A DNA stretch of 64,000 nt from Coraliomargaritaceae bacterium (GCA_965659965.1 CBFHXZ010000001.1:9049-73048), one strand, 5' to 3'. Counted from the first letter of the stretch, positions 42,578 through 60,549 are shown. The notes: generated by a model from the letters alone, not told the origin. A program made the numbers and translations.

Positions 42578-42589
42578 ACCGTTGAACAA
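42578..42589 (-). promoter_or_regulatory. TTRTTCAACKRT motif (TTGTTCAACGGT), candidate operator or internal-promoter element
   Basis: Lies in the 99-nt gap inside the glucan cluster, 63 nt upstream of the 42515 start. 42578..42595 is 16/18 identical to 53266..53283. Confidence 0.4.
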
Positions 42590-42614
42590 ATTTAGAATAT
42601 TAGAATTATGGCAA

Positions 42615-43046
42615 TCAGCCCTCACCGAAAGAAATGGAACGGATTCCGACGGCTTTAAGAACATTGAGGACGTTGACCACGCTTTGCTGGTAGGTTTCGG
42701 GGTCGGGTTGGATGATGACAATGGTTTTGAGTCCGGCGCGGTCGGAGGAAAGCTTGAGGCCTTGTAGGGTTCGCCTGAGATTGGGCAGGTCGGGGTTGCC
42801 GGGATTGTCGGAGGGCATGCCGTTGAGCAAGGTTGTTCCGTCGACAAGAATATCAATGTAATGCTGCTCAGGAAGCGGAGTATCGGGGGGCGCGGCCATG
42901 CTGGAGGGCAAGGTCACTCCGAGGTCGGCCTCCTCTTTGATTATAGAAGTGGTAACCATGAAATAAACCAACAGGAGGAAGACGATGTCGATCATAGGGG
43001 TGAGATCGACCCGGTCTTCAGAGATTTGGATGCGGCGCGCTTTCAT
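42615..43046 (-). CDS. exbD: biopolymer transport protein ExbD/TolR
   Basis: 143 aa. DLTPMIDIVFLLLVYFM TM helix and an ExbD periplasmic domain. Confidence 0.85.
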   Translation of the reverse strand: MKARRIQISEDRVDLTPMIDIVFLLLVYFMVTTSIIKEEADLGVTLPSSMAAPPDTPLPEQHYIDILVDGTTLLNGMPSDNPGNPDLPNLRRTLQGLKLSSDRAGLKTIVIIQPDPETYQQSVVNVLNVLKAVGIRSISFGEG

Positions 43047-43051
43047 GGTTC

Positions 43052-43465
43052 TTATTTATCGCTCTGGAAACTGGCAAAAATAACATTGGGTACCCCACCG
43101 GCTGCGGCGGCGGCAAAGAGCTTGCGAACCTCCTTGAAGGGTACACGGGCATCCGCGCGAATGTAGACCTTGATTTTCGGGCTGTCCTCGCGTGCCTGTT
43201 GTACGTAAGCGGTCATGTCTTCAACCGCGATAGGCTGGGATCCAAAAAAGAGGGAACCGTCGTTTTGAATAGTAACAACCACCCGTGAACTACGGTCCTC
43301 TGGGATGACGGCGTTGGCGGCAATAGGAACGTCAATTTCGACCAATTCCTGCACCTGCATTTTCGCCACAGTCATAAAAAAGACGATCAGCAAAAAGACG
43401 ATATCGATCATCGGAGTGAGATCGGGAAGGTCGTTCGCGGTATCGTTCTGTCTGGCTGGTTTCAC
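43052..43465 (-). CDS. exbD: biopolymer transport protein ExbD/TolR
   Basis: 137 aa. DLTPMIDIVFLLIVFFM, a second ExbD paralog, 5 nt upstream of the next gene. Confidence 0.85.
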   Translation of the reverse strand: MKPARQNDTANDLPDLTPMIDIVFLLIVFFMTVAKMQVQELVEIDVPIAANAVIPEDRSSRVVVTIQNDGSLFFGSQPIAVEDMTAYVQQAREDSPKIKVYIRADARVPFKEVRKLFAAAAAGGVPNVIFASFQSDK

Positions 43466-43510
43466 GCGTGGGAAAAATTCAACAGGGCCGGTGCTTCAGG
43501 AAATATAGGC

Positions 43511-44281
43511 TCAGTTGTTCTCCTTGTGGAGCATACCCTGTTTGGCCATCAGACGGGTCATGGTGCCCAGGGCTTCATAAACTCCTGAGGAGGCAGTGAG
43601 GTATTTGTTCTTAAAATAGAAATACGCCATCAGGGCGGGAATGGCGATAAGGAGCCCGCTGGCGGTCGTGACAAGCGCCTCGGAAATATTGTTGGCGAGC
43701 AACTCGGGTTTACCGAGTCCTTGCGAAGCGATGTTACGGAAGGCTTTCACCATTCCGCTGACGGTTCCGAGCAGTCCCATCATGGGAGAGATGGAGGCGA
43801 TCACTTGCAGGTATTGCACAAAGACCAGGGGTTTCGCCAATATTTTACCCGCGCGTTCCTCCATCGCTTCGTTTACGGCGGCAACGGAACAATGCCCCTC
43901 TTCGATGGTATTGAATGCAATCGCAAGAATTTCGGTCATATAACCTTCTTGCTCGCGACAAGCCTTGAGACCCTTTTCAGGATCGCCGCTCTCGATTGCC
44001 TGTTTCAGGGCGTCAACCGCCTCCGGTTGGGTAAAGCGCGATTCTTTAATCAAGAGAGCGCAGTAGACCGCGAGTCCAACCAGAGCGACGGAGAATGCGA
44101 GGAGGGGATACATGGCCCAACCTCCCTGTTGAAAGAGCGTCCATAGGGTTACGGAAGTCTCGCTGGTTTCGGGAACCGTAGATGCGTTCTCCTGTGCGTT
44201 AAGAGTGGCGGCAGTTCCAAGAAGAAGTAACGCGAAGCGCGTCCACAAGGTGCCGGTGGCTTGATAGTTCAGTGCAGTCAT
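43511..44281 (-). CDS. exbB: MotA/TolQ/ExbB proton-channel protein
   Basis: 256 aa with an N-terminal signal-like segment and three TM helices. Contains MMGLLGTVSGMVKAF and ALVTTASGLLIAIPA motifs. Confidence 0.85.
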   Translation of the reverse strand: MTALNYQATGTLWTRFALLLLGTAATLNAQENASTVPETSETSVTLWTLFQQGGWAMYPLLAFSVALVGLAVYCALLIKESRFTQPEAVDALKQAIESGDPEKGLKACREQEGYMTEILAIAFNTIEEGHCSVAAVNEAMEERAGKILAKPLVFVQYLQVIASISPMMGLLGTVSGMVKAFRNIASQGLGKPELLANNISEALVTTASGLLIAIPALMAYFYFKNKYLTASSGVYEALGTMTRLMAKQGMLHKENN

Positions 44282-44296
44282 AATTGAGGAGCTTTA

Positions 44297-45382
44297 TTAT
44301 TTTGGTGATGAATGATTTCGAGACTTTTCGCAGCCCCATTGGCTGGCGGGAAACATAATGGAGACTTCCTGGTGCGCCTGAGTGGCAGCGTCCGGCATTT
44401 CCATTTTTTCATAAAGTAAGGCGAGGGTATGCAGCAATTCAGGGTACCATGGGTCCGTGGCGGCGGCATGGGTCTTGCCCCGCGCCGCGGCCCGCATGGC
44501 AGCCGGATACTCCCCTTGTCGTAATTTCCAGCGGGCATCGATTAATTCCCGAAGGGAGAAGTAAGGTTCGTTGATCTGGATTTTCGGCAAATCCTGCAGG
44601 ATGGATTGGAGCGATTCCGAATCCACGAGATAAAATCCACAATACGCAGCCCATAACCAGGCGGCCAATTGATGCGCGGATTTCTCCCCACTGACTTTGT
44701 GGTACATATCAAAGGCCTTTTGATATTCACCGATCTCGCGCCAGGAATCCCCAAGTGACAATAGCACCTCAAGCCGGGCAGGCCCACCACCCTCCATCGA
44801 AAGGAAGGAGCGGTGAATTGATTCCAATTCTGTTGTGGCCTGTACACGGTGGAGCGAAAGCGCGCTTCGGCCAATTTCATCCAGAATTGCAGGCGGAACC
44901 TCACGCATGGGCAGCGCGGTGACCAAAGCGGCCAAACGCTTCCAGTTTCCCGTGCCCCGCAGGGCCTCAAAATAGGCCCGCACGGTGGAAACGTAGTTCC
45001 CGGGCAAATGACTCAAGCCCATATATTTCAAGAAAGGGCGTGCTTCCGGCTCAATAAGCGGCAACGCCTGAAGCGGTTGATCGTTGTTTAGTTTTTTAAG
45101 GCCATCGTAGAATGCATCACTCAGCAGGAAATTGAGCATAACCTTCTCTTTTTCGAGGGTATCAAAATCAAGGTAAGCCCGTCCCCCAAAATCAGTGCCC
45201 TTTGGCCGGAAAACCAGTGAACGACTTTCCAATCCTGTCAGTATGACCGAGTCCGTCTGCATGGGGTATCGAAGTTCAACGGGAAGCTCCGCCGCGCCGA
45301 GCGGTCCTGCGCAACACGGGGCAAGCGCAAGCACACAGAGGCGTGGAATCATTTTTATCAGCAGTGGCGGCATGAGGTTCAT
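44297..45382 (-). CDS. hypothetical exported helical-repeat (TPR-like) protein
   Basis: Signal peptide (MIPRLCVLALAPCCAGPLGA), alpha-helical repeat character, and a 4-nt overlap with the upstream TPR gene. No TonB signature seen. Confidence 0.5.
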   Translation of the reverse strand: MNLMPPLLIKMIPRLCVLALAPCCAGPLGAAELPVELRYPMQTDSVILTGLESRSLVFRPKGTDFGGRAYLDFDTLEKEKVMLNFLLSDAFYDGLKKLNNDQPLQALPLIEPEARPFLKYMGLSHLPGNYVSTVRAYFEALRGTGNWKRLAALVTALPMREVPPAILDEIGRSALSLHRVQATTELESIHRSFLSMEGGGPARLEVLLSLGDSWREIGEYQKAFDMYHKVSGEKSAHQLAAWLWAAYCGFYLVDSESLQSILQDLPKIQINEPYFSLRELIDARWKLRQGEYPAAMRAAARGKTHAAATDPWYPELLHTLALLYEKMEMPDAATQAHQEVSIMFPASQWGCEKSRNHSSPK

Positions 45383-48300
45383 GGGGTCAACCGTTTGCGG
45401 CGGATAGCATCATAGTATGGAGAGGCCTTTGAAGTGGGCAGGTCGAGGAAATATTGATAGGTTCGCTGTGCGGAATCAGAATCCCCCATCGCTTCGAGCA
45501 AATCCGCACTGGCCAGGACGGCCTTGCCCGACCACTCGGGGTAGGCGGAGAATGCAAGATAGGTGCGCTCATAAAAACCCTGTGCTTTGGCGAGATCCTC
45601 CAATTGGGCAAAACATTCGCCCATTTTAAAGCTTGCCTCGGCCCAAGCCTCGCCGCGCCATTCCCGTTGGTTAAGCACCATTGCATAGGCCTCCACCGCT
45701 TCTTGCAACCGCTCGGTCTGGCGCAAGGCATCACCGCGCAGGATCGCCGACCGCCGGGCATAAACAGAAGTAAAGTGTTCCTCCAGCACACGGTTGTGAT
45801 ACGCTTGGGCAGCTTCGTGATTGTGGCGTTGGGATTCCAATGCTCCCAATAGAAAAAGACCCTCTGCAGCAGCAACGCTATCCGGCACTCCGGAAACCAG
45901 TTCCGTGAGAATTGTAATCGCACGCTCCGCATCTTCCTCCGCGATCAAACGAGCAATCCAGACCTTGGAGGCAGGGCTTGCAGACTCGACCCAGTCAGCC
46001 GTGAATTGCCCTGTTTCAACTGCCTCACCGTCACGCTGGTTCAGCACCCGAAGGAGACGCAAAGCAAGGGTTTCCTGTCCCGCCGCCACCGCAGCAGCAT
46101 ACATCGCTCTAAAAACCCAGGCAGGTTTTTCAGGGGGTAGTTTCGCAAGCCGTGCCTGGTTACGCGCAAGCAACTCACCCAGCGCAGGGTAGTCCTCAAG
46201 GCTCAACGCGCGTCCATCGGTCGTCGCAACTGCGGCATCGGTATGCGCTGCCAACTCTCCGTACAGGGGATGGCGCATTGTGAGCAATTCCTTAATACCG
46301 GAATCAATGGCTTCGTGTTGCTGGAAATAACTTATTTGTGCAATGCGATCATAGAGCATGCGCGCACGAAAAGACTCATCACCCAACAAGGCCTCAATGA
46401 ATGTTGCCGTTTCTGCCGCCCCCGCGCGTATTGCCGAATCCTGCTCCCACCAAGAATCAATAACCACATCCACGTCGTCCGATTTCGAGTCATTCCCAAA
46501 ACGCTCAATCCCGTCGCGGTAGCGCGCAAAGGCCTCGGGCACCCTACCCTGGTCCAATGCAGCCTCAGCCATCCGCATAATGGCCTCGGCACAGGATGCC
46601 GACTCCGGGTATTTGTTAAGAAATTCCTCCAGAATCCCGTCATGTTCCGCATGACGCTTATTCGCAAGCAAGAGTGCCGCCGATTCAAAATAGGCGTGCT
46701 TGATCATAGCCAAGGCACCTCCATGGGTTTCCACCAGGCGATAATGCATGAGTGCACGCTCCACCCGGGCATCCATCGCATCAAGATCCCCCATAAATAC
46801 ATACGCCTCCGGAACAAGCGGGTGCCCGGATGAATCAGACAACCAGGACTCAAAGACCTCGCGGGCCTCTGCGTATTGACCCAATCCAAAATGCGCAACC
46901 CCCCGGCGGAAACTCGCCTCTTTGAAATATACACTCCCCGGATAATTCGCCAGCAAGGTGTTGAAGGCACTCAGGGCAGATTCAAAATCCCCGCTAAAAA
47001 GGTAGGCCATCCCAATCCAGTAACTGGCGCTGTCGATGAATGCACCATCAGGATATTCCGCGACCCAAAACGAGAAATCTTCGATGATGCGATCGACCAT
47101 CCCCTTCTTGAGGAGCGCCTGACCCAGGTAATGGCTCATTTGAGCCGCGACGGGTTCAAATGGAAAACGGTGCAGGAAATCATCCGCCAGTATCGAGAGT
47201 TTTTCGACTGCTTCAAAACGAGCATAGAGACCGGCGAGTCGCACCGCCAACGGTTTCTCAAAAAGCAGGTAGGACGGCTCAGCAAGGTAGTATTCTCCGT
47301 GGCCCATCGCCTCACTCAAATAATCACAGGCAATACCCTGAGTGAAGGCAGCGTAACGGAATTGCTCAATTTGCCGATGCTGCGGGTAGTTATCGACCAA
47401 TCGCTGAAAGCCAAAATAGGCCTCATACTTACGCTCCATTAATTGCAGGACCCGAGCCTGCCGCCAACGCAAATTGGCGGTATATTTTGGCGCCTCCATT
47501 AATTTCATGCGCTGTTCACGCAGGGCTTCCAGTTCAGCAAACTGTGCTTTTGACGCATCCCCCGAAGACCGGTTGCGGAATGCCCACTCCTCGAGTTCAA
47601 TGAGGCGATCCTCCACCACCTTGAGCAATCGCTCCACCGGCAAAACCATGGAAAATAAAAAACCCGCCTCAAGATAACGCTCCTCATCTTCAAATTTATC
47701 ACCGGTATGTAACAGGCGTAGATTTACCCCAATGTCATATCGAAAATCGCGGTCGGCATTGATCGCGGTCACCAGTTTCAAGAGTTCCGTGATATTATCC
47801 TCCTCAAGGGATTGATCAAAAAGACTGTTCAGGCAAAAGAGACGCACGGCATAGGGATAGCTCCCGCCAAGGAAATTCCATAGTGGTTCATTCGCCTCCG
47901 CAATCCGGTTACTTTCACGTGCCGCATGCACCATGCGCTGAAGCAAGCCTAGCAAATCCTCCTCCTTGATCTGGGCATGGTAAACTTGGGTCGAGTAGAG
48001 ATACCCCTCCATCGCCGCTTCCCATTGCTCACCCGCAAATAAACTATCCGCCCGATTCAGTACCGCCAGCGGGTGCCGCTTGTCACTCAGGAATTCTGCA
48101 ATGAATTCCTCCCAATACGGCACTCCCTTGAGTAGTGTTTCCTTATTTCCGTTCTGCTCAAACCAGCGCATATGCGCGAGCCCCAGACGGTAAAGGTTCT
48201 CGCGGTAAATGCCGCGGTATTCCTCACTCATCGCGTTGGTCAGGCGCGTCCTTATCTCAACCATAAAGGGTATCACGGCAGCTGGCTGCGTCTCGTAAAG

Positions 48301-48450
48301 CGTATCCACCTGAGCCGCGAGATCCTCCAGGGTTAAATCTGGAAAATTCTCCACCTGCGCTTCCCCAAAAAGCAAGGGCGCGGGTGTGATGAGGCAGAGC
48401 GTAAGAGCAACCAAGCACGAAAAACGAATCAACTGCCCTTTCACCATCAT
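45379..48450 (-). CDS. large exported tetratricopeptide-repeat protein
   Basis: 1023 aa with a signal peptide and many W/Y-x-A-x-F/Y-x-G-type TPR units (e.g. AAQAYHNRVLEEH, EASFKMGECFAQLEDLAKAQGFYERT). It has 4-nt overlaps with both neighbours. Confidence 0.7.
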   Translation of the reverse strand: MMVKGQLIRFSCLVALTLCLITPAPLLFGEAQVENFPDLTLEDLAAQVDTLYETQPAAVIPFMVEIRTRLTNAMSEEYRGIYRENLYRLGLAHMRWFEQNGNKETLLKGVPYWEEFIAEFLSDKRHPLAVLNRADSLFAGEQWEAAMEGYLYSTQVYHAQIKEEDLLGLLQRMVHAARESNRIAEANEPLWNFLGGSYPYAVRLFCLNSLFDQSLEEDNITELLKLVTAINADRDFRYDIGVNLRLLHTGDKFEDEERYLEAGFLFSMVLPVERLLKVVEDRLIELEEWAFRNRSSGDASKAQFAELEALREQRMKLMEAPKYTANLRWRQARVLQLMERKYEAYFGFQRLVDNYPQHRQIEQFRYAAFTQGIACDYLSEAMGHGEYYLAEPSYLLFEKPLAVRLAGLYARFEAVEKLSILADDFLHRFPFEPVAAQMSHYLGQALLKKGMVDRIIEDFSFWVAEYPDGAFIDSASYWIGMAYLFSGDFESALSAFNTLLANYPGSVYFKEASFRRGVAHFGLGQYAEAREVFESWLSDSSGHPLVPEAYVFMGDLDAMDARVERALMHYRLVETHGGALAMIKHAYFESAALLLANKRHAEHDGILEEFLNKYPESASCAEAIMRMAEAALDQGRVPEAFARYRDGIERFGNDSKSDDVDVVIDSWWEQDSAIRAGAAETATFIEALLGDESFRARMLYDRIAQISYFQQHEAIDSGIKELLTMRHPLYGELAAHTDAAVATTDGRALSLEDYPALGELLARNQARLAKLPPEKPAWVFRAMYAAAVAAGQETLALRLLRVLNQRDGEAVETGQFTADWVESASPASKVWIARLIAEEDAERAITILTELVSGVPDSVAAAEGLFLLGALESQRHNHEAAQAYHNRVLEEHFTSVYARRSAILRGDALRQTERLQEAVEAYAMVLNQREWRGEAWAEASFKMGECFAQLEDLAKAQGFYERTYLAFSAYPEWSGKAVLASADLLEAMGDSDSAQRTYQYFLDLPTSKASPYYDAIRRKRLTP

Positions 48451-51400
48451 GGATTTTGTAATATGAGCAGTGCCGAAGATTGTGGTTCTAGTTTCAAGCG
48501 AACCTTACCTTCACGAACTTTAAGGCGGTTACTACCAAGGACGTCCTGCAATTCCCCGCTTTGTATTTCAGGACCCAAATCCAATTCCATGACCGCGTCC
48601 CGATCGCTGCGGTTAAAGGCCACCAGCGCGCGATTCGAGCCATGAGCACGAAGGTAGGCATACGCCGTATCATTAGCGACAAGCGTGCGGCGGCTCCCCA
48701 TATACAAGGCAGGATTCGAGCGCCGTGCCTGCGCCAATTTTGAGAAATGATCCCGAACGGAAAGCTCCGCGATGGTGACTTCGCCATCAAAACGCATCCT
48801 GCGCCGGTTGTCGGGATCCCCTGCTCCCGTCATACCTATTTCATCACCATAATACAGCATAGGTACCCCGTCGATCGACATAAGGAAAGTCATTGCCAGC
48901 TTTAATTTCCTGAAGGCTGCCGGGTCGTCCACCCGAAGCGTTTTACTCCAACCCACCTCTTCCTCATCCGCTTCATCCGAGTCCGGCAAATCTCCATCCG
49001 CATAAGCCATGAAACGCGGCTTGTCATGATTGCCGAACAAGGGCGACATACGGGTGCTGCGACCATAAGCCGCCTCCGATTCACGCAAGGCCGCCTCCAA
49101 TTTAACAAAGCCCGCAGTATCAAGCGCAAAGCATTCCATCAGGGTGTCGTACAGCGGAAAATCAAATTGCCCATCCAGCATATTGGGCCCCACAAAAGCC
49201 GAAATACCTTCCCTGCTTTGAAAGGTCTCCCCGACAAAATAATGACGCGCACCCGGGAAGCTATCCCGCATATGTGTACGGAAGCGCCACCAAAAATCAG
49301 GGCGTATATGCTTCACCGCATCGAGGCGGTAACCGTCCAAACCAAAGCTGCTAATCCAGTATGCCGCATCCTCAAGTAGGAAATCCACCGTCTCGGGATT
49401 TCGAAAATCAAAAGCGGGAAGGAAGGGTTCAAACCACGTAGTAAACGGATTATCATCCCAGCGCCGCAAATTCCGTGTACCATCGCTGAGCTCTAATTCC
49501 CCAAATAATTCCGGTCGCTCTGTTCGGATGGGGTTTTCAATGTGCACGTGTTTGAGCACCAAATCCGCGAGAATCTTGACCTCTCTCTCATGCGCGGCAT
49601 CCACGAGTGCACGCAGGGCTGCCTCGCCCCCAAAACGCGGCTCAACCGCATAGCGGCGAATGGGCCAGTAACCGTGGTAACCGGTGTAGGAACGAAACGG
49701 CGGCAGGTATTCCTGCCAGGCACCCGCAGGGTTTTGATTCAGCGGCGCGAGCCAAATAACATTCACCCCCAGTGATTCAAAGTAGCCCGCCTCAAGCGCT
49801 TGCAGCACGCCCTCAAAATCACCTCCGTGATAATTCGCCACCGGATCAACTTCGGGGTCTTCCACCCGAGCAGTATTGGCAGGATTCCCATCTTTAAAAC
49901 GATCGGTAAAGGCATAATAAATGATGTCGTCACGCCAGTTGTCCTTTGGCGGTTTTCCTGCAAACGCAATCGCCGGCCATCCAACCCTACCGTCCGCACC
50001 AACCGTGATCACCCGAACCAAAGTTCCCGTGGGTACCAAGCCCTTGTAAGCAACACGCAGGGCATGTTTATCCAACTCCACCGGCAAGGAAACACACCCG
50101 CCCTTTTCAAGAAGGCCTTCAGCATAGGCGCTTTGAATTTCCTGATTCGCACGCAACTTAATGGCGGCGCGATCCAGCTGCTCCACATATAAGGTCAGTT
50201 GTTCCTTTTCCCCGGTCGCACCGGAAGCCTGCATCAAGCTGTTGAAACCACCATGTCCGTCCGCTTCCTGTGATGGATTTCCCGGGTCCGGCATCCAGTT
50301 TCCGTCGACCACATATTTATACCGAATGCTCGGTTCCTTAATTGCTTTATCGAGCTGCCAACCCTCCTTTGTGCGCTGCAATAAATCCGCCGCTGCATTC
50401 CACCCATTGAAATCCCCAACCAAAGCGACCGAGTTCGCCTCATGATAGCCTTTTAATTCGAAGGTCAAACGTGCTACCACATCAATAGCGACCGGAATGG
50501 AACTCTCAATCACGGGCTCTCCCGCACGGGTTGGCACGAGCCGCAAGGGCAACACCCGCAAGCCCAAAGCATTACTGTCCACCCGTAGATTCAAGCGATG
50601 GTTCAGCGAATCCAACTCTGCATTTATACCATCAACTTTCCCAACCGCAAAACGATGGTACTCGCCGGGGTTTCCGTATCGGCGCAAATCGATGCTGTGG
50701 CTTGCGCCCGCTTCCAATCGAATCAAAGGCGAAGCACCGAGATATGCCTGCCCCGCCGGAAGCATCGCCCCCACCCTTATCCCCGCGGGTTGCGCCTCCA
50801 CCAAACTCAACTTGAGGTAGGCCGACGAATGCGACCCTATGCTTTCCAAATATAGCCCTTCGCGCCCCACGTAATCCGCTGGCCAAGCGACCGACTCCCC
50901 ATCATTACCCCTGAGGCGTTCCTCCATCACGATCCAGCCCGATCCCCCTTCATTAATGCCCAGGCTAGACAATGCCGCTTCGGGGAGGCGAATCCGAACA
51001 TGACGCATATCCGCTTTGGGATGAAAATTACTGGCTACCAAGTAATGCGAGTCTGCGGTCGGATCACTCCGCAAATATGCGTGCAGCCAATGCCCCGACG
51101 GGCCCACATCCTCGATTTTCCCGTAGAAGGGATTGTCCTGATTCGCCTCATTCAAGAGAATGGTATTTCCCGTCGTAAAAGCACGCTCCCCAAGCAAACC
51201 TAGCAAACCCACGTACCAGGCGCGCAAATCCCTCTGCTCCGACGATAGCCCCGCTCCGTCAGCAGCACCTTCGTTCCACCATTTGTTCAACTCCGACAAC
51301 GACCAATAATCAAAAATCGAAGTGCGCTCATCGTCCCCGCCAAACCCTTCACGACCCAGCGCAGGCTCACCCACTTTTTGTCCGTGGTAAACCATCACCG

Positions 51401-53189: not shown

Positions 53190-53265
53190 TTTAAAGAAAC
53201 AAAACTATTGGAAACCCCAAGAATAACAAGGATTCACCGACCTGAACGAGCCGCCTCCCTATTTG

Positions 53266-53277
53266 ACAGTTGAACAA
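53266..53277 (-). promoter_or_regulatory. TTRTTCAACKRT motif (TTGTTCAACTGT), candidate operator upstream of the glucan operon
   Basis: 77 nt upstream of the start at 53189, in the divergent intergenic region. AACCCTAAA lies 1 nt away. Confidence 0.4.
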
Positions 53278-53323: not shown

Positions 53324-54451
53324 ATGATTGCATCCACATCCGCCCGCAAAACGCCCCTGCAACGACTCCTCAAGCGGCCCTTGTGGCTCATTTTGTGCAT
53401 CAGCCTGCTCCTGCACCTCATGGTCGGCCTTTTCTTCGGCAGCTGGAAGATTTTTTCCATTCTCACCAAAGACGAAGCCGTCTTTGAAGTCGCCACCCCT
53501 CCGCAATCCATCCAGCCCAAACAGCGCGACTATAAAATTAAAACCATGCGTGCCCAGCGTTCCACCGCGATGGCGACCCAAATCCCCATTACCGTGGATA
53601 TGCCCAACTCCATCGACCTCCCCTCCATTCAAATTCCCAAAACGCAAAGCGCCCAGAGCGCGATCAAGGCGCGGGGCGACGCCGGTAGTTTTGGTGCCGG
53701 CGACGGCGGGGGCGGCTTTACCACCCTCTTCGGAAACACCGCGCCGCTCGCCGGCGCGCTCGAGGGTACCTTTATCGACCTCAAACAGGACCGCTATCGC
53801 GAGGGCGCCTCTGGAGAGGACTGGATGGATGTCGGCAAAGGATTCCTTCGCAGTTACCGCCTCCGCGAATTCCGCAAATGCTTCAACGCCCCGCAAAAAC
53901 TCTTCGCCACCCATTTTTATATCCCCCTGATGGCGGCAGATGGCGTGCCCCGCGCCTATGGCGTCGAGAATTTGGTGGAAGCCAGCAACTGTGTGGCGCT
54001 TTATCAGGGGAAGTTCAGATCCCTCTCGGGCGGAAGGTATCGCTTTGTAGGAACCGCCGATGATATCCTCATTGTGGGCGTGGATGGAAAAACCGTGCTT
54101 TCGGCAGGCTTCACTGAAGCCAACCCCGGCAAGTGGGAACCCAAAGATGAACCGGTTCATTCCGGCCCGCCGGTCTCGGAATATTTACCCAAGCTCACCG
54201 TCGGTGACTGGTTTGACCTGCCAGCGGGAGCGCCGGTCGACCTCTCCGTTCTCATCGGCGAAATACCCGGCGGGGAATTCGGTTGCTACCTCTTTATTGA
54301 AAAAAGCGGCGAAACATACGAGACCACCGCCGAGGGACGCCCCATCCTACCCGTCTTCAAACTCAAGGAATTTTCCCGCTCCGAACGCCAGACCCTCGAA
54401 CAGGACGGCTACCCCAAACGCCTCGACGGCGAAGTCTTCGGCTACTACTAG
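53324..54451 (+). CDS. membrane-anchored hypothetical protein with a PA14-like C-terminal region
   Basis: One TM helix (LWLILCISLLLHLMVGLFFG). ALYQGKFRSLSGGRYRFVGTADDILIVGVDGKTVL resembles the PA14 beta-sandwich core. Start set to the ATG at 53324; the ORF-track TTG at 53270 lies inside the regulatory motif. Confidence 0.45.
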   Translation: MIASTSARKTPLQRLLKRPLWLILCISLLLHLMVGLFFGSWKIFSILTKDEAVFEVATPPQSIQPKQRDYKIKTMRAQRSTAMATQIPITVDMPNSIDLPSIQIPKTQSAQSAIKARGDAGSFGAGDGGGGFTTLFGNTAPLAGALEGTFIDLKQDRYREGASGEDWMDVGKGFLRSYRLREFRKCFNAPQKLFATHFYIPLMAADGVPRAYGVENLVEASNCVALYQGKFRSLSGGRYRFVGTADDILIVGVDGKTVLSAGFTEANPGKWEPKDEPVHSGPPVSEYLPKLTVGDWFDLPAGAPVDLSVLIGEIPGGEFGCYLFIEKSGETYETTAEGRPILPVFKLKEFSRSERQTLEQDGYPKRLDGEVFGYY

Positions 54452-56082: not shown

Positions 56083-56160
56083 CCACGGGCAGGTCATTCC
56101 CCATGCCTGCCATTCGCGGTTCCTTCAGCGATCAAGGCGCAACCTTCGCTGTTGGTTCGG

Positions 56161-56979
56161 CTATCGTGAGGAGCCCGCGGTAATCTTACGACGGCGGCGA
56201 ATGCTAACGACAAGCAAGGTTACTGCGGCAAGCGCCAAGACACTGTGTGCAGGCTCGGGTACGTTAGTCACGCTCAGGGAATTGAAGTAGAGATTATTCT
56301 GATCTCCATTGTCAGTTCCGCTGATGTAGAATTTCACATTGTCGATTGCGGCGGTGATTCCACTTACGGTACCTGTAAAGAGTACCCCCTGTGAGCCCTG
56401 ACTGGATGTTCGGCTGATCTCATAACTGAGACTGGTCGCGTTGATAACCTGTATAACAACATCGATCATGGCGTCATCGCCGCCGTAATCATAAGTCACT
56501 GCAGTGGTGGCATTGTTTGTGAAGTCGGTATTAATTTCAGTGGTATTACCCACATTAAAGCCAACCACCTCGTCGGTGCCGCTGCGCAAGACAAGGCCTT
56601 TATTGCCGTTGTTGTTATTTAAAGCCAGTTTAGCGGTGAAACGATCGTTAGCCACCAAGCTGCTTGAAAAACTGCGGGTGGCGTTCATGTATGCCGTGCT
56701 CGGGTTGGCATAGAGGCCAAAAGACTGATTGGCGCCCGTATTAATATCGCCCGCGCCCGCGGTGGAATCACCGATGAAGGAACCCGCGTAAATGGTGGTG
56801 TCATCATTATTGTTATCACTTAGATCCCAGGCGCCAAAACCGGTGCCGAAATTACTGCCGTTGCTCCATGACGAACCGTAAGCGGAGGCGTCATCACTAG
56901 CCTCAAGTGCATAGGATTGTGCTGTTAATAAGAGCGAAAGGAGTACAAATGCAGCAAAACTTTTTATCTTATTTTTCAT
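56161..56979 (-). CDS. PEP-CTERM-anchored surface protein, GFGxW family
   Basis: Signal peptide. The C-terminus VPEPAHSVLALAAVTLLVVSIRRRRK is a PEP-CTERM sorting signal. The N-terminal body is paralogous to 41673..42515. Confidence 0.75.
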   Translation of the reverse strand: MKNKIKSFAAFVLLSLLLTAQSYALEASDDASAYGSSWSNGSNFGTGFGAWDLSDNNNDDTTIYAGSFIGDSTAGAGDINTGANQSFGLYANPSTAYMNATRSFSSSLVANDRFTAKLALNNNNGNKGLVLRSGTDEVVGFNVGNTTEINTDFTNNATTAVTYDYGGDDAMIDVVIQVINATSLSYEISRTSSQGSQGVLFTGTVSGITAAIDNVKFYISGTDNGDQNNLYFNSLSVTNVPEPAHSVLALAAVTLLVVSIRRRRKITAGSSR

Positions 56980-57044
56980 TTCTGAGGTAAATTTATCGAA
57001 AGTTTGTCACCACCGACGAACAGACTAAAACATAAAACCATTCA

Positions 57045-57056
57045 ATAGTTGAATAA
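57045..57056 (-). promoter_or_regulatory. TTRTTCAACKRT motif (TTATTCAACTAT)
   Basis: 66 nt upstream of the PEP-CTERM gene start at 56979. Embedded in the inverted repeat ATTCAAtagTTGAAT. Confidence 0.35.
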
Positions 57057-57115
57057 ATGAACCCACCTGCAGGGCTGCAGGCTTTTACCAGCTTTGGCTT
57101 TGCGGCTCTGATTTT

Positions 57116-57811
57116 TTATTCTCCAGAGAAGATAATGCCCGCCGCATCTGCGGTCTCGCGGAAATCGCGGTCCATTACGCCCGTTGTGCCATCAATTTTG
57201 CCTTTTATAGCGTTATTCGCCTCCGCGCCGTTCGGCCCGGTGGAATAGAGGTGGTAGCCGTAAACCTCCCAGGCGCCCGAACTATTTTCCCATTTATACC
57301 AATAGATGTATGGGTTTCCCCAGGGGTCGAGCAGTTGATTGGGCTCGTTGGCATCACCATTCACCTGGAATTTACTGGTCTCGATAAATTGTGGATTGGC
57401 GATGACCTGAGCATCGTCCAACTCATCCGCAACTTTTCTGACTTCAACCTTGCTACGATCCGGACCATCCGGAACCCGTTCCATTGTCATACGCCCGGTC
57501 AAAGCATAGAGGAGCATGGTGTTGGTCATTTCACCGCCGTCGGGCGTGGGGTAATCACCGTCATCGGAATCGTGCCTCGGGTAATCACCGTAACGCGACT
57601 TGTATTGCTCCAGCGCCTGAGCCAGGACCGAAAGCTCTGCCTTCGCAAGGGCACGGGATTGTGCGCTTTTGACTCCCCGCGCGACCCCAAAGGTAATACT
57701 GACCAAAATCCCGACCACCGAGATAACGACGAGGAGTTCGATCAGGGTGAAGCCTTTGCGGCGACGAGCTTGGGGGTTTAGCGGGTGGTAGCTTTTTGGG
57801 GTGGCTTGCAT
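57116..57811 (-). CDS. type II secretion/type IV pilus-like pseudopilin (prepilin-type N-terminal methylation domain, GspG-like)
   Basis: RRRKGFTLIELLVVISVVGILVSI is a prepilin cleavage/methylation motif. LLDPWGNPYIYWY resembles GspG. No other T2SS genes lie nearby. Confidence 0.8.
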   Translation of the reverse strand: MQATPKSYHPLNPQARRRKGFTLIELLVVISVVGILVSITFGVARGVKSAQSRALAKAELSVLAQALEQYKSRYGDYPRHDSDDGDYPTPDGGEMTNTMLLYALTGRMTMERVPDGPDRSKVEVRKVADELDDAQVIANPQFIETSKFQVNGDANEPNQLLDPWGNPYIYWYKWENSSGAWEVYGYHLYSTGPNGAEANNAIKGKIDGTTGVMDRDFRETADAAGIIFSGE

Positions 57812-57967
57812 TGGTATGGTTAATTTTGGCGATTTACGTGGATTGGCCCGATGCTGTCAATCCATGAGCCATACCGAGATGGGTCTGTCCCCACTAAATC
57901 CCCAAATATCGCTTCGAGAATAGTGCTTTCTTGGGTTAGAGCTGCCCTAAAGCATTTGTATTCAAGG

Positions 57968-57979
57968 TTATTCAACTGT
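57968..57979 (+). promoter_or_regulatory. TTRTTCAACKRT motif (TTATTCAACTGT)
   Basis: 74 nt upstream of the PEP-CTERM gene start at 58053. AACCCTAAA follows after 2 nt. Confidence 0.4.
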
Positions 57980-58052
57980 TTAACCCTAAAAGTTTTTTCA
58001 TTTCATCAAAATTAGCCAATTGTTGAAGTATTAATCGATTTATATTTTTATC

Positions 58053-58658
58053 ATGAAAACAAAGCTCATAACTTCTTTGGCCTTACTTGTCCTTGGCAGC
58101 GCACTCTCTGCGCAATCAATCTTCAACGGATATGCCTACGTTTCTGACACAACCGCGGGTGCCGATACCATTTGGTACAATCTTAGCGGGACCGGACAAA
58201 GCTCCAGCTTTCAAGGCGCAGATCTCGGAGATTTTAACACCAACCTCTGGTTAGGCGGACAATCCGGTTTCTTTAGTGACTTCGCTGGCACACAGTCCGT
58301 TATCCTGAACTATAACATTACTGGTGATGCGACTGCAACCGGAACAGTTGCCTACTCCTTCCAGTATTTTGAAGGACCTGCTGGGACCAACAACGATCAA
58401 TATGGCACGGATATCAACGGAGCCAACACCTCAGACGGATCAGTCGATCTCATTGCGGCGCACTCGCTTGCAGCGGGTGATTACAACATCGCGGTATGGG
58501 TAGTCGGCACTGCTAACGATAGCGATACTGCTTTTGACAGCAACAATAGTAACAACTACAATGCCTCTTTCACGGTGGTTCCTGAAGCTTCTACTTATGC
58601 ACTCTTTGCCGGTCTGGGCGCACTAGCCTTCGCGCTGATCAGACGTTTGAAGCAATAA
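58053..58658 (+). CDS. PEP-CTERM-anchored surface protein (second family)
   Basis: Signal peptide. The C-terminus VVPEASTYALFAGLGALAFALIRRLKQ is a PEP-CTERM variant followed by a TM helix and a basic tail. Confidence 0.75.
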   Translation: MKTKLITSLALLVLGSALSAQSIFNGYAYVSDTTAGADTIWYNLSGTGQSSSFQGADLGDFNTNLWLGGQSGFFSDFAGTQSVILNYNITGDATATGTVAYSFQYFEGPAGTNNDQYGTDINGANTSDGSVDLIAAHSLAAGDYNIAVWVVGTANDSDTAFDSNNSNNYNASFTVVPEASTYALFAGLGALAFALIRRLKQ

Positions 58659-58698
58659 AATTTTTCACTGGCCATGGCTCGATACGAGCCACCCCGAA

Positions 58699-58747
58699 GA
58701 CCCGCTGTCATTTGAGCCTCATCGCTCAAAAGCGCGGGTCTTTTATT
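58699..58747 (+). terminator. Rho-independent terminator after the PEP-CTERM gene
   Basis: GACCCGC (58699..58705) pairs with GCGGGTC (58734..58740) and encloses an inner hairpin TTTGAGC/GCTCAAA. Followed by TTTTATTT. Confidence 0.6.
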
Positions 58748-58757
58748 TATAGGATCC

Positions 58758-59432
58758 ATGCGTTTCATCGTTCTAGTTACTTGGCTTGCCATACTCGCTT
58801 GCCACTCGACCAAGGCTTACCCGCTCCAAGCATGGAAAATTAAAACGGTCACCAATCAAGTAACGACTCGTTTTAATGGCATTGAACTGGAACTCTTGGT
58901 TGTCACCAAAAAAGACGCCGGAATTCGGGCAACGGTTTTTTCTCCCACACAAAAACCTGACGCCTTGATTCTCTTTGATGAAAAAGAACTCTATTTATCA
59001 TCAAAAAACGGGATCGATCCCGTAGTCTACACAAAGCTTACTGGGCAAGAAGCTGCGGAAAACCTTTTTCAGATGCTTGCCCTCAACCCCTGGATTCATT
59101 TTCCAGAAGGCAGGCTCAAACACGAATGTCCTGCGCTCGAGGACTACCTCATTGTTTTTAATTATATCCTCAAGGAAGATACTGTTAAACCCACTGAGAT
59201 GCGTTTGTATCAGATGGCTCCAGTGAAAGATAAATTAGTCAGCACCATTCGATTTGTAGAATTTTTCTCCTCGCGCACCAATTTGTTTCAGCCGAAAATC
59301 CTTTTAGTAACCGATCATACGAAGCAAACAAGCGGTGAGGTGCACATCAAAAATTTTACTTATAATCTTGGCTTGGGCGATTTTCTTTTTGAAGCGCAGG
59401 AAGCTTCGGGCAGTAGCCTCAATGAGCCTTAG
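58758..59432 (+). CDS. hypothetical exported protein
   Basis: 224-aa ORF with a signal-like N-terminus (MRFIVLVTWLAILACHS). Visibly AT-richer than the housekeeping genes. No recognised motif. The ATG lies only ~10 nt after the upstream terminator. Confidence 0.4.
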   Translation: MRFIVLVTWLAILACHSTKAYPLQAWKIKTVTNQVTTRFNGIELELLVVTKKDAGIRATVFSPTQKPDALILFDEKELYLSSKNGIDPVVYTKLTGQEAAENLFQMLALNPWIHFPEGRLKHECPALEDYLIVFNYILKEDTVKPTEMRLYQMAPVKDKLVSTIRFVEFFSSRTNLFQPKILLVTDHTKQTSGEVHIKNFTYNLGLGDFLFEAQEASGSSLNEP

Positions 59433-60483
59433 TGGAGGCGACCGATTCCCGGACACTTGCTCCATCCACCCAGATGCTCTCAATCTCAACCACTTGGGGG
59501 TATTCCTGCGCGCCAAATTCATTGCGCTGTAGCTGACCGACGACTAAATCGACCCCAACCTGACCCACAACTTTGTTATTTTGGCGCATGCCCGCCATCT
59601 CTTTCAAACCGGCATGCCAGTCCAAATGTACAAGACCCACTTCATCCGGAATGCTGAACCCGGAATCCCGCAGGGCGCTATAAAGTTCACTTTGATTGGT
59701 TATAATGACATCTGCCTTGCGCGCCTTGATAGTCTTGATTGCCTGTGGTAGGCTTTCCAATTCCAGGCCTACTACTTCGAGTTGATCGCGCTTGGGCAAT
59801 GATTTGACAATGCTGTAGAAACCAGCGCTGAACTTATTTTCCAATACCGCATCATCCGCTTCGGGCACTACTAGAATAGGCCTTCGATAGCCCATCTTGA
59901 GGACCTTTCGGGTGGCCCGTCGCGCGGTGAGGTATTGATCATTGGTGGAGCAATTGATGCGCTTGTTCAGTTGCGCCGTACCAATAACGGCACAGGCGAA
60001 TTGCTTATAAAATAGAGCGAATTGCTCGTCATCAATTTCATCGAATCCAAGCATGCCGATAAGCACGACTCCCCGAATACCTCGTGTCTCAAGAATTTGC
60101 TTAAGCCGTTGGGGTCTCAAATCCGGCTTTTGAAGCCAGAATTCCTCTACGCCGTAACCCAACTTTCGGCTGCGTTCGAGAACGCCCTCGCGCAATCGAC
60201 TGAAGGTATGATTGCTACTTAGGTTCTCAAAGGGCGCACAATTGATGAGCGCAAGATTGGCTCGAAATCCCGGTTGCCGCCCCGCCCGCAATTGCGACAT
60301 CAGCGTGTCCACGACCGGGTTCCGTTGGTAGCCCATTTTTTTGGCAATCTGCTGAATACGCGCCCGCGTGCTTTCAGGAATTCTGGGGTCATTGCGCAAA
60401 GCCAGTGAGACGGCAGATTTGCTCACTGCCGCCGCGTCGGCGATTTGTTGCATATTGGGGCGACCAGCCCGTAGGGTTGGCAT
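59419..60483 (-). CDS. LacI-family transcriptional regulator
   Basis: N-terminal HTH (MQQIADAAAVSKSAVSLALRNDPRIPESTRARIQQIAKKMGYQRNP) plus a periplasmic-binding-protein-like sugar-binding core. An alternative start is the ATG at 60453. Confidence 0.85.
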   Translation of the reverse strand: MPTLRAGRPNMQQIADAAAVSKSAVSLALRNDPRIPESTRARIQQIAKKMGYQRNPVVDTLMSQLRAGRQPGFRANLALINCAPFENLSSNHTFSRLREGVLERSRKLGYGVEEFWLQKPDLRPQRLKQILETRGIRGVVLIGMLGFDEIDDEQFALFYKQFACAVIGTAQLNKRINCSTNDQYLTARRATRKVLKMGYRRPILVVPEADDAVLENKFSAGFYSIVKSLPKRDQLEVVGLELESLPQAIKTIKARKADVIITNQSELYSALRDSGFSIPDEVGLVHLDWHAGLKEMAGMRQNNKVVGQVGVDLVVGQLQRNEFGAQEYPQVVEIESIWVDGASVRESVASTKAH

Positions 60484-60537
60484 AGTAATAATAGGTAGTA
60501 AGGGATCCTAAACATACACAAGAAGCCCACTTAGTCG

Positions 60538-60549
60538 ACAGTTGAATAC
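60538..60549 (-). promoter_or_regulatory. TTRTTCAACKRT motif (GTATTCAACTGT)
   Basis: 55 nt upstream of the LacI-family gene start at 60483, in the divergent AT-rich region shared with the GH13 gene. Confidence 0.35.

What the first reader, a model, noticed from the sequence alone, without database searches (positions are those of the whole stretch)
42578..60549. Oriented 12-mer TTRTTCAACKRT 55-77 nt upstream of five genes of the glucan/cell-surface region
Seen in sequence, read in the direction of the downstream gene: (1) TTGTTCAACTGT at 53277..53266, 77 nt before the double-GH13 start at 53189. (2) TTGTTCAACGGT at 42589..42578, 63 nt before the 42515 start, in the only sizeable gap of the cluster. 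(3) TTATTCAACTGT at 57968..57979, 74 nt before the PEP-CTERM gene at 58053. (4) TTATTCAACTAT at 57056..57045, 66 nt before the PEP-CTERM gene start at 56979. (5) GTATTCAACTGT at 60549..60538, 55 nt before the LacI-family gene start at 60483. All five have the same orientation relative to their gene. Sites 1 and 2 extend to 16/18 identity on the plus strand (ACAGTTGAACAAGTTTAG vs ACCGTTGAACAAATTTAG). Sites 1 and 3 also carry AACCCTAAA within 1-2 nt of the core, on opposite sides of it. A given 9-mer is expected only about 0.5 times in 128 kb of double-stranded sequence (equal base frequencies assumed), yet ACAGTTGAA occurs three times, each time in an intergenic region. Inference: this is a shared cis-element (operator or activator site) tying the glucan cluster, both PEP-CTERM genes and the LacI-family gene into one regulon. 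It is not palindromic, so it does not look like a classical LacI operator, and the cognate factor may be encoded elsewhere.
Basis: partly seen in the sequence, partly recalled or inferred. Interest (0 to 1): 0.6.

Follow-up and report, generated by a model that had tools for sequence, protein, structure and literature searches.

The report
LacI-type operator of a starch regulon
The repeated 12-mer is real: it is the well-conserved half of a short palindromic docking site for the sugar-sensing LacI-family regulator encoded next door, and it ties starch-degrading enzymes, surface (PEP-CTERM) proteins and a pilin-like protein into one conserved, otherwise ordinary, regulon in marine Verrucomicrobia.

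Summary
TTRTTCAACKRT occurs 4 times in the window (0.03 expected). These are its only copies in the 1.65-Mb genome, and all lie in promoter regions of one alpha-glucan locus. The fifth, variant site is also where stated.

The reading is partly right. The 12-mer is one half plus the centre of a 13-15-bp pseudo-palindrome, R-TTCAAC-W-GTTGAA-Y, whose other half is degenerate.

Sites sit at the same promoters in about 15 Puniceicoccaceae/Coraliomargaritaceae genomes: LacI/giant GH13, double-GH13/hyp393, GH77, and both PEP-CTERM genes. Several copies there are perfect palindromes, and the surrounding intergenic DNA has diverged.

The motif follows the LacI ortholog and its recognition helix (VSKSAVSLALR) down to 39% identity. 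It is absent upstream of paralogs. It shows no excess or clustering in five congeners that lack the regulator.

The cognate factor is therefore most likely the adjacent LacI-family protein, autoregulated and probably a maltodextrin-responsive repressor, not a factor encoded elsewhere.

This is a new member of a known kind. The palindrome has odd length and no central CG, a rare LacI operator type. An earlier scan note describes an analogous LacI/PEP-CTERM/pilin-like/amylase regulon in a Phycisphaerae genome.

The parts
53262..53274 (-). Operator site 1 (minus strand TTCAACTGTCAAA). It lies in the 134-bp divergent region between the double-GH13 gene (start 53189) and hyp393 (start about 53324).
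   Evidence: Sequence. PWM trained on other genomes scores 23.1 bits, the top hit of the whole genome. An orthologous site occurs in L029, L031, L035, L042 and L023, 72-90 nt before the GH13x2 start.
42574..42586 (-). Operator site 2 (TTCAACGGTTCAG), a weak site. It lies 58 nt before the 42515 start of the hyp299-GH77-MFS unit.
   Evidence: Sequence. PWM scores only 11.7 bits, not significant on its own. The site is identical in sister genome G001, while the DNA just upstream has diverged. Strong sites (TTCAACTGTCAAA) stand before GH77 in G012, G009 and L033.
57041..57053 (-). Operator site 4 (TTCAACTATTGAA, 1 mismatch from the perfect palindrome). It lies 61 nt before PEP-CTERM gene 1 (start 56979), just after a terminator-like hairpin at 57082-57065.
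   Evidence: (18.3 bits). Orthologous sites, three of them perfect palindromes, lie 41-103 nt before PEP1 orthologs.
57971..57983 (+). Operator site 3 (TTCAACTGTTTAA). It lies in the divergent region between the pseudopilin gene (start 57811, minus strand) and PEP-CTERM gene 2 (start 58053, plus strand).
   Evidence: 23.0 bits. Orthologous sites occur in L029, L035, L038 and L023.
60534..60546 (-). Operator site 5 (TTCAACTGTCGAC), 50 nt before the LacI start (60483).
   Evidence: 21.6 bits. A site lies within about 150 nt upstream of the regulator gene in every ortholog at 55% identity or more.
60613..60625 (-). It lies 105 nt before the giant GH13 gene (start 60731) and 129 nt before LacI.
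   Evidence: 17.5 bits. A second or third site at 98-122 nt before the GH13big start occurs in 12 other genomes.
59419..60483 (-). LacI-family transcription factor, the proposed cognate regulator. Recognition helix VSKSAVSLALRN, hinge NPVVDTLMSQL.
   Evidence: Pfam LacI HTH PF00356 (2.4e-11) and Peripla_BP_1. The helix is conserved only in motif-bearing orthologs. All named homologs are Verrucomicrobiota.
42615..53189 (-). Regulated unit 1: double-GH13 enzyme (1580 aa), TPR protein, hypothetical 361-aa protein, ExbB, ExbD, ExbD.
   Evidence: Pfam. The genes overlap or are tightly spaced. Co-transcription is inferred, not shown.
38758..42515 (-). Regulated unit 2: hyp299 (unanchored paralog of PEP-CTERM protein 1), GH77 4-alpha-glucanotransferase, MFS transporter.
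   Evidence: Pfam. The PEP1 query hits the hyp299 region. GH77 and MFS sit in the same cluster in G012, G009, L033 and L037.
53324..54451 (+). Regulated gene hyp393: membrane-anchored conserved protein of unknown function, divergent from the double GH13.
   Evidence: The start was set from ortholog alignment. It is 64-87% identical in L029, L031, L035 and L042. No family hit was found, apart from a weak PA14 hint in 1 of 5 orthologs. The structure model is poor.
56161..56979 (-). PEP-CTERM protein 1 (ends VPEP, then a TM helix, then RRRRK).
   Evidence: Sequence. VPEP is invariant in 9 orthologs. The model has pLDDT 76 and shows a beta-sandwich with weak resemblance to ConA-like lectins (TM 0.3-0.43).
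57116..57811 (-). Pseudopilin-like protein (N-terminal methylation motif), sharing the divergent operator region with PEP-CTERM gene 2.
   Evidence: Pfam N_methyl and T2SSG. NCBIfam GspG N-terminal part. The position is conserved in L029, L035 and L038.
58053..59432 (+). PEP-CTERM protein 2 (58053-58658; ends VVPEA, then a TM helix, then RRLKQ) and the hypothetical 224-aa gene (58758-59432).
60731..64000 (+). Giant GH13 enzyme (2793 aa; runs beyond the window to C1:78160), followed by two more GH13-type genes.
   Evidence: It is divergent from the LacI ortholog in all 15 loci at 55% identity or more, and in G012 and G009.

Best explanation
The 12-mer is the strongly conserved half-site plus centre of a 13-15-bp pseudo-palindromic operator, R-TTCAAC-W-GT(y)(n)AA-Y, whose perfect form is TTCAAC-W-GTTGAA.

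A dimer of the LacI-family regulator encoded at 59419-60483 most likely binds it. Six operators in the window sit 50-130 nt upstream of start codons. They place the following genes under one local control, including autoregulation of the regulator:
- the double-GH13/TPR/ExbB-ExbD-ExbD unit;
- the hyp299/GH77(MalQ)/MFS unit;
- hyp393;
- two PEP-CTERM surface proteins;
- a pseudopilin-like gene;
- the giant-GH13 operon.

Shown here: the sites, their dyad symmetry, their conservation at orthologous promoters, and their co-occurrence with the regulator and its recognition helix.

Inferred from what is established for the LacI family: the protein binds the sites, acts as a repressor, and is released by an alpha-glucan breakdown product such as maltose or maltodextrin.
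For: 1. Specificity. A PWM built only from sites of other genomes gives its 8 best hits in G000 (17.5 bits or more; 6 places) all in this locus, 5 of the 6 places intergenic.

2. Dyad symmetry. All six window sites match TTCAACNGTTGAA with at most 2 mismatches. Among 54 collected sites, 5 are perfect and 21 have one mismatch.

3. Footprinting. The element is the only conserved island in otherwise diverged upstream regions of GH13x2, PEP1, PEP2 and GH77 across genera.

4. Whole-genome counts of TTCAACWGTNNAMY. The share of matches falling in the cluster is G012 4 of 5, G009 6 of 7, G001 4 of 4 and G000 3 of 4. The reversed control pattern gives 1-3 scattered matches per genome.

5. Link to the regulator.
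- Best upstream PWM score is 14.8 bits or more in 15 of 15 orthologs at 55% identity or more, and 14.6 or more in 4 of 5 at 38-43%. It is 1.8 or less in 5 of 5 paralogs at 31% or less.
- The recognition helix VSKS(A/S)VSLALR(N/D)D and the hinge are conserved exactly in the motif-bearing set and differ in the paralogs.
- The regulator and the double GH13 are present together in G000, G001, G009 and G012, and neither was found in congeners G002-G006. In those five congeners the pattern is at control level and unclustered.
- Distant orthologs (39-43%) keep the site in front of their own gene although their neighbours differ. A CBM48-GH13 gene is still nearby in the two loci examined, L045 and L048.

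6. Agreement with the family. In Ravcheev et al. 2014 (PMC4052901), 72% of LacI-family factors are autoregulated, more than 75% of their sites lie 140-30 bp before the start codon, and about 4% have odd-length palindromes. The site distances here are 0-244 nt, mostly 40-135.
Against:
- The operator is atypical for the family. It has odd length, no central CG and one systematically degenerate half: 27 of 28 two-mismatch sites carry both mismatches in the same half.
- The G015 ortholog (51% identity, same recognition helix) has no site upstream of its gene on its short contig.
- Site 2 is weak (11.7 bits), and about 30 places in the genome score as high.
- The PWM and the site list were seeded from the window's own consensus, so their statistics are partly circular. 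The whole-genome pattern counts with a reversed control are the unbiased part.
- Orthologous sites are inherited, so the counts across genomes are not independent.
- No promoter could be located, so repression rather than activation is inferred only from family behaviour.
Confidence: 0.8

Rival explanations
1. The element is a real operator but is bound by a different transcription factor, encoded elsewhere in the genome. The LacI-family protein would then be merely one of its targets.
For: The motif departs from the usual LacI pattern of an even palindrome with a central CG. One half is degenerate. G015 has an ortholog with the same recognition helix but no upstream site.
Against: The motif tracks the LacI ortholog group down to 39% identity, even where the neighbouring genes change. 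It also co-varies with the recognition helix. No other DNA-binding protein is conserved in the locus. Regulator, regulon and motif excess are absent together in five congeners.
Confidence: 0.1
2. The conserved TTCAAC is a promoter element, for example the -35 box of an ECF or other alternative sigma factor dedicated to this locus, rather than a repressor operator.
For: The sites lie 50-80 nt before start codons. An 'AAC'-containing -35 box is typical of ECF promoters (general knowledge).
Against: The element has dyad symmetry, with perfect palindromes in several genomes. No information content is seen at a fixed distance downstream where a -10 box should be (positions 15-23). Sites occur in both orientations within single divergent regions, and some abut the regulator's ATG. 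No sigma or anti-sigma gene is present in the locus.
Confidence: 0.04
3. The similarity reflects chance, or a remnant of duplicated promoter DNA (paralogous PEP-CTERM genes and their upstream regions), with no function.
For: PEP1 and hyp299 are paralogs. Sites 1 and 2 share 16 of 18 bases including flanks.
Against: Shuffles give 0.03 expected matches against 4 observed. The element is kept at orthologous promoters across genera while the flanks diverge. It also occurs before non-paralogous genes: GH13x2, GH77 and LacI.
Confidence: 0.02

Closest known systems
Local LacI/GalR-family sugar repressors and their operators, as catalogued by comparative genomics (Ravcheev et al. 2014, Front Microbiol 5:294, PMC4052901); for example MalI and MalR of maltose/maltodextrin regulons
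   Same: - The regulator has a LacI-type HTH plus a sugar-binding-like domain.
- The operator is an inverted repeat.
- The regulator is autoregulated, with 1-3 sites in a divergent control region.
- Most sites lie 30-140 nt before start codons.
- The regulon is small and local, made of glycoside hydrolases and a transporter.
   Different: - The palindrome has odd length (13-15 bp) with a central A/T instead of the central CG found in about 90% of family motifs.
- One half is systematically degenerate.
- The regulon also holds PEP-CTERM surface proteins, a pseudopilin-like protein and an ExbB/ExbD/TPR unit.
- The phylum (Verrucomicrobiota) is not mentioned in that survey's text.
- The effector domain has no close solved relative.
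E. coli lac O1 operator / LacI (general knowledge; LacR, GalR and EbgR are named as odd-palindrome cases in PMC4052901)
   Same: It is a pseudo-symmetric operator of odd length with one better-conserved half. Auxiliary operators lie tens of bp away.
   Different: The half-site sequence is unrelated. This protein has no obvious C-terminal tetramerisation helix (sequence), so looping between sites is not expected by that route. Nothing has been measured here.
Earlier scan note e1-1170609: a LacI-type regulon in a Phycisphaerae (Planctomycetota) genome linking a DUF1559 pilin-like gene, PEP-CTERM proteins and a surface amylase
   Same: The cast of genes is the same (LacI regulator, pilin-like protein, lectin-like PEP-CTERM proteins, surface amylase), wired by a shared palindrome.
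   Different: It is a different phylum. No word-level similarity to this regulator was found in the scan's index, and all named homologs of this regulator are Verrucomicrobiota. I did not test that note; the relationship may be analogy rather than orthology.
Earlier scan note e1-2135787: a verrucomicrobial alpha-glucan regulon with a CCGCA-N6-TGCGG palindrome, assigned to a NarL/FixJ-type response regulator
   Same: It is also a conserved operator in front of several alpha-glucan transcription units in a Verrucomicrobium.
   Different: The motif is different and the proposed regulator belongs to a different family. Not tested here.

Membership tests
LacI/GalR-family regulator with its operator (local sugar regulon) | The regulator carries an N-terminal LacI-type HTH and a periplasmic-binding-protein-like effector domain | tested here: met
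   PF00356 at 2.4e-11 (residues 11-55) and PF00532 at 1e-4. NCBIfam MalI, TreR and CcpA models match, all below their cut-offs. PDB LacI-family chains match the HTH region only.
LacI/GalR-family regulator with its operator (local sugar regulon) | The operator is an inverted repeat (two half-sites for a dimer) | tested here: met
   The consensus is TTCAAC-W-GTTGAA. Of 54 sites, 5 are perfect and 21 have one mismatch. The flanking R/Y positions are also symmetric.
LacI/GalR-family regulator with its operator (local sugar regulon) | Even-length palindrome with a central CG. This is typical of about 90% of members but is not obligatory. | tested here: not met
   The centre is a single A/T (49 of 54 sites) and the length is odd. 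Ravcheev 2014 reports about 4% odd palindromes in the family, so the feature is rare but not excluding.
LacI/GalR-family regulator with its operator (local sugar regulon) | The motif is inherited together with the regulator: sites upstream of the regulator gene across orthologs, and absent for paralogs | tested here: met
   15 of 15 orthologs at 55% identity or more, 4 of 5 at 38-43%, and 0 of 5 paralogs at 31% or less. The recognition helix co-varies. One exception is G015.
LacI/GalR-family regulator with its operator (local sugar regulon) | Sites lie in promoter regions, mostly 30-140 nt before start codons | tested here: met
   The window sites lie 50-129 nt upstream of the nearest regulated start. 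Orthologous sites lie 0-244 nt upstream, mostly 40-135.
LacI/GalR-family regulator with its operator (local sugar regulon) | Direct, sugar-relieved binding of the protein to the operator | not testable with these tools
   This needs EMSA or DAP-seq, and expression data.
ECF/alternative-sigma promoter | One-directional -35 element with a conserved -10 element at a fixed spacing of 16-17 nt | tested here: not met
   No information content is seen at positions 15-23 after the core. The element is a dyad and occurs in both orientations within single divergent regions.
Response-regulator (OmpR/PhoB-type) direct-repeat site | Tandem direct repeats with a period of 10-11 bp | tested here: not met
   Apparent direct repeats beside sites 3 and 5 in the window are not conserved in other genomes. 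The conserved symmetry is inverted.

The most novel reading that the evidence does not exclude
The regulon membership defined by this operator would reveal a Sus-independent alpha-glucan capture apparatus typical of PVC bacteria. In it, lectin-like PEP-CTERM surface proteins, a pseudopilin-like protein and an ExbB/ExbD/TPR motor work with giant surface GH13 enzymes. The apparatus would be controlled by a LacI-family lineage that reads an unusual odd, CG-less, obligately asymmetric operator. The analogous gene set noted earlier in a Phycisphaerae genome would then be the same functional module.
Probability: 0.3. Interest if true: 0.6.

Novelty: new member of a known kind. Interest (0 to 1): 0.4.

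Why it matters
Transcriptional regulation in Verrucomicrobiota is almost unexplored. This gives a concrete operator consensus and a candidate regulator. It also gives a compact regulon that can be tested in cultured relatives: Cerasicoccus arenae, Coraliomargarita sinensis, C. algicola.

Its main practical value is guilt by association. It assigns several proteins of unknown role to alpha-glucan (starch, glycogen, maltodextrin) use in streamlined marine bacteria that lack SusC/D-type systems. These proteins are two PEP-CTERM surface proteins, an unanchored paralog, a pseudopilin-like protein, hyp393 and an ExbB/ExbD/TPR unit.

The operator adds a case to the rare odd-length class of LacI-family motifs. 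Conceptually the regulon is still an ordinary local sugar regulon.

Tried and rejected
- Sigma-70 promoter and terminator scan of 42400-60800. It gave 17 promoter-like hits against 14.0 +/- 3.7 in shuffles, and none was convincingly placed beside the sites. The only useful result was a terminator-like hairpin just upstream of site 4.
- AACCCTAAA as part of the element. Rejected: it is intergenic-enriched genome-wide and not conserved beside the sites outside the genus.
- Direct-repeat reading (ATTCAA-N4-ATTCAA at site 3, AACTGT-N4-AACTGT at site 5). Rejected: not conserved in other genomes.
- ECF -35 reading. No conserved -10 element was found.
- Extra PWM or pattern hits outside the cluster. 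These were G012:414517, G009:C11:157455, G015:C35 and C52, and G000 C2, C8 and C18. They lie inside ORFs or beside unrelated genes (PRA isomerase, AP2-domain protein, histidine kinase), so I did not take them as regulon members.
- Structure of hyp393. The model was too poor to search (pLDDT 42). Pfam gave only a 0.022 PA14 hint in 1 of 5 orthologs.
- Structure of PEP1. The model is usable (pLDDT 76), but matches to ConA-like lectins, calreticulin and ERGIC-53 have low TM scores (0.30-0.43). A carbohydrate-binding role is only a suggestion.
- Literature searches for the motif, or for a verrucomicrobial LacI/PEP-CTERM regulon, found nothing relevant.
- PDB sequence search with the regulator matched only the HTH region.

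Full report
**1. The observation**

The pattern TTRTTCAACKRT has four exact matches in the window, at 42578-42589(-), 53266-53277(-), 57045-57056(-) and 57968-57979(+). Dinucleotide-preserving shuffles give 0.03 expected. ACAGTTGAA occurs three times against 0.43 expected. Reading the five intergenic regions confirmed the following:
- the fifth, one-base variant site (GTATTCAACTGT, 60549..60538);
- the distances to the start codons (77, 63, 74, 66 and 55 nt);
- the 16/18 identity of sites 1 and 2;
- the neighbouring AACCCTAAA.

The window is G000:C1:9049-73048 of a 1.65-Mb, 98%-complete assembly. In the whole assembly the 12-mer pattern has only these four matches. The observation therefore stands and is far beyond chance.

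**2. Gene context**

On the minus strand lie two units:
- a 1580-aa double GH13 enzyme, a TPR protein, a 361-aa hypothetical, ExbB and two ExbD genes (42615-53189);
- a 280-aa hypothetical, GH77 4-alpha-glucanotransferase and an MFS transporter (38758-42515).

Further along lie hyp393 (start reset to about 53324 from ortholog alignment), two PEP-CTERM proteins, a pseudopilin-like gene and a 224-aa hypothetical. After these come a LacI-family regulator (59419-60483, minus strand) and a divergent 2793-aa GH13 enzyme, which is followed by two more GH13-type genes. The PEP-CTERM tails (VPEP or VPEA, then a TM helix, then an Arg-rich end) are visible in the sequences and are invariant in orthologs. 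This is an alpha-glucan utilisation locus.

**3. What the 12-mer really is**

Homologous loci supplied the key. Upstream of the regulator's orthologs in related genomes the same core recurs, sometimes as ATTCAACAGTTGAGT or TTCAACTGTTGAA. That pointed to a dyad, TTCAAC-N-GTTGAA.

All six are intergenic.

I collected 54 intergenic sites from the window and 14 other loci and oriented each by its better half. They give R-TTCAAC-W-GT-y-n-A-A-Y. Positions 1-6, 8, 9 and 12 are nearly invariant, and the flanking R and Y are symmetric. Positions 10 and 11, which mirror the invariant C3 and A4, are degenerate.
- Five sites are perfect palindromes and 21 have one mismatch.
- Of the 28 sites with two mismatches, 27 carry both in the same half, where about 45% would be expected at random.

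The statement 'it is not palindromic' is therefore incorrect, though the asymmetry it reflects is real.

**4. Conservation and specificity**

Record titles place the relatives in Verrucomicrobiota: Opitutia, Puniceicoccaceae/Coraliomargaritaceae, including the cultured Cerasicoccus arenae. Named homologs also include Coraliomargarita sinensis, C. algicola and Rubellicoccus.

Mapping the window's proteins onto 20 loci shows the element at the same promoters in genus after genus:
- one to three sites between the regulator and the giant GH13;
- one between the double GH13 and hyp393;
- one before PEP-CTERM 1;
- one between the pilin-like gene and PEP-CTERM 2;
- one before GH77.

When these upstream regions are anchored on the element, it is the only conserved island between genera.

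A PWM built only from other genomes' sites gives its eight best hits in G000 (17.5 bits or more) in this locus. These are sites 1, 3, 5, 4 and 6, plus one place inside the 3' end of the giant GH13 gene, outside the window. Site 2 is weak (11.7 bits). It is unchanged in sister genome G001 although the adjacent DNA has diverged, and it occupies the place where relatives have a strong site before GH77.

The most unbiased test is a whole-genome count of TTCAACWGTNNAMY with the reversed pattern as control. In the complete 3.06-Mb genome G012, 4 of 5 matches fall within 10 kb. The corresponding figures are 6 of 7 in G009, 4 of 4 in G001 and 3 of 4 in G000, all inside the cluster. Controls give 1-3 scattered matches.

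**5. Which factor?**

Four lines of evidence point to the adjacent LacI-family protein.

(a) The best PWM score within 320 nt upstream of the regulator gene falls into clear groups:
- 14.8 bits or more in 15 of 15 orthologs at 55% identity or more;
- 14.6 bits or more in 4 of 5 at 38-43%;
- 1.8 bits or less in 5 of 5 paralogs at 31% or less.

The 95th percentile for random 330-nt windows of the same loci is 10.2.

(b) The distant orthologs keep the site (TTCGACCGTTGAAC, about 20 nt before their start) although their neighbours differ. In the two of these loci that I examined (L045, L048) a CBM48-GH13 gene is still nearby.

(c) The recognition helix VSKS(A/S)VSLALR(N/D)D and the hinge NP(V/I)V..LM.QLR are conserved in exactly the motif-bearing set. 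Paralogs have VHFTTVGLALRN or VSVMTVSRALRG. One paralog's upstream region shows a canonical CG-centred palindrome, CAAACGTTTG.

(d) The regulator and the double GH13 occur together in G000, G001, G009 and G012. Neither was found in the five congeners G002-G006 (97-100% complete). In those five the pattern is at control level, 5 matches against 7 for the control, and unclustered.

One exception remains: the G015 ortholog (51% identity, same helix) has no site on its 9.7-kb contig.

No other DNA-binding protein is conserved in the locus.

**6. Mechanism**

According to Ravcheev et al. 2014 (PMC4052901):
- LacI-family motifs are palindromes, and 1251 of 1303 are even;
- 1173 have a central CG, and about 4% are odd (LacR, GalR, EbgR);
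- 72% of the factors are autoregulated;
- more than 75% of the sites lie 140-30 bp before the start codon.

The present element fits in symmetry, autoregulation, position and regulon content. It belongs to the rare odd class and lacks the central CG.

I infer a dimeric repressor that occupies the six operators and is released by maltose or maltodextrin. Both the repressor role and the effector are inferred from the family and the regulon content. Neither is shown.

No promoter could be located. In several genomes one operator abuts the regulator's ATG (TTCAACTGTTGAAtATGGC). That position is more compatible with repression than with activation.

**7. Orientation**

PEP2 is split 3 to 4. In divergent regions the partner gene necessarily sees the opposite orientation: GH13big 2 to 18, hyp393 0 to 5 and pilin 0 to 3. 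Orthologous sites are inherited, so only about six independent site families exist. The orientation is conserved at each position, but it is not evidence for a one-directional element.

**8. Rivals**

- A different, distant factor cannot be excluded without binding data, but the co-variation above argues against it (about 0.1).
- A dedicated sigma-factor promoter is contradicted by the dyad, by the lack of a fixed -10 element and by the mixed orientations (about 0.04).
- Chance or a duplication remnant is contradicted by the cross-genus footprint (about 0.02).

**9. Co-regulated unknowns**

An AlphaFold model of PEP-CTERM protein 1 (9-sequence alignment, pLDDT 76, pTM 0.74) is a beta-sandwich. 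Its best PDB matches are legume lectins, calreticulin, ERGIC-53 and VIP36. The TM scores are only 0.30-0.43, so a carbohydrate-binding role is a suggestion, not a finding. The model of hyp393 was unusable.

**10. Novelty and verdict**

I found no paper describing this motif or regulon.

Another (e1-2135787) reports a different operator on a verrucomicrobial alpha-glucan regulon. I did not test either note. The scan's index shows no word-level relative of this regulator outside its own genome.

The finding is real. The regulon reading is right and the 'factor elsewhere, non-palindromic' reading is wrong. The result is a new member of a well-known kind, a local LacI-family sugar regulon, with a rare operator geometry and an informative set of co-regulated surface proteins. 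Interest is moderate (0.4).

Noticed in passing
G000 genome-wide; in the window at 53279-53287 (minus strand) and 57982-57990 (plus strand): AACCCTAAA / ACCCTAAA is strongly enriched in non-coding DNA across the genome. Ten of the 18 AACCCTAAA copies lie upstream of genes, one of them inside a crude ORF call that over-extends the hyp393 start, although only 9% of the genome is non-coding. Several copies lie 1-60 nt before start codons. It may be a general promoter-type element of this lineage and is not specific to the regulon.
   Followed up: partly
G000:C1:77902-77916 (window coordinate about 68854, beyond the window end): A strong operator-like site (GTTCAACCGTTTAAC, 19.9 bits) lies inside the 3' end of the 2793-aa GH13 gene, 267 nt before the next GH13 gene. 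Similar sites sit near the equivalent position in G001, L031 and L033. It could be an auxiliary or internal operator, or simply coding-sequence conservation.
   Followed up: partly
window 54684-55919: The 411-codon ORF between hyp393 and PEP-CTERM gene 1 has no counterpart at the syntenic position in sister genome G001, or in L031, L035 and L042, where hyp393 is followed directly by PEP1. It looks like a lineage-specific insertion and has no operator in front of it.
   Followed up: no
L033 9966, L034 9967, L037 9966, L042 9966, L024 422, L026 18350: In several related genomes one operator directly abuts the regulator's start codon (for example TTCAACTGTTGAAtATGGC). This suggests either a very short or absent leader, or occlusion of the translation start region.
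   Followed up: no
window 57065-57082 (minus strand): A terminator-like hairpin (GCCTGCAGCCCTGCAGGT followed by a T-rich run) lies between the pilin-like gene and site 4. PEP-CTERM gene 1 therefore probably has its own operator-controlled promoter.
   Followed up: no
window 56161-56979 (PEP-CTERM protein 1) and 41673-42515 (hyp299): The PEP1 model is a beta-sandwich with weak resemblance to ConA-like lectins, calreticulin and ERGIC-53 (TM 0.30-0.43). hyp299 is an unanchored paralog of it placed at the head of the GH77-MFS unit.
   Followed up: partly
L051, about 187 nt upstream of a 30%-identical LacI paralog: The paralog's upstream region carries a canonical CG-centred palindrome (CAAACGTTTG). 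This shows that paralogs in the same phylum use the usual LacI operator geometry.
   Followed up: no
G015 (L005/L028, L061): A 51%-identical ortholog with the same recognition helix has no upstream site on its 9.7-kb contig. The best site in that genome (ATTCAACTGTCTAAT, 24 bits) lies between a PRA isomerase gene and a small AP2-domain gene. This is unexplained.
   Followed up: partly
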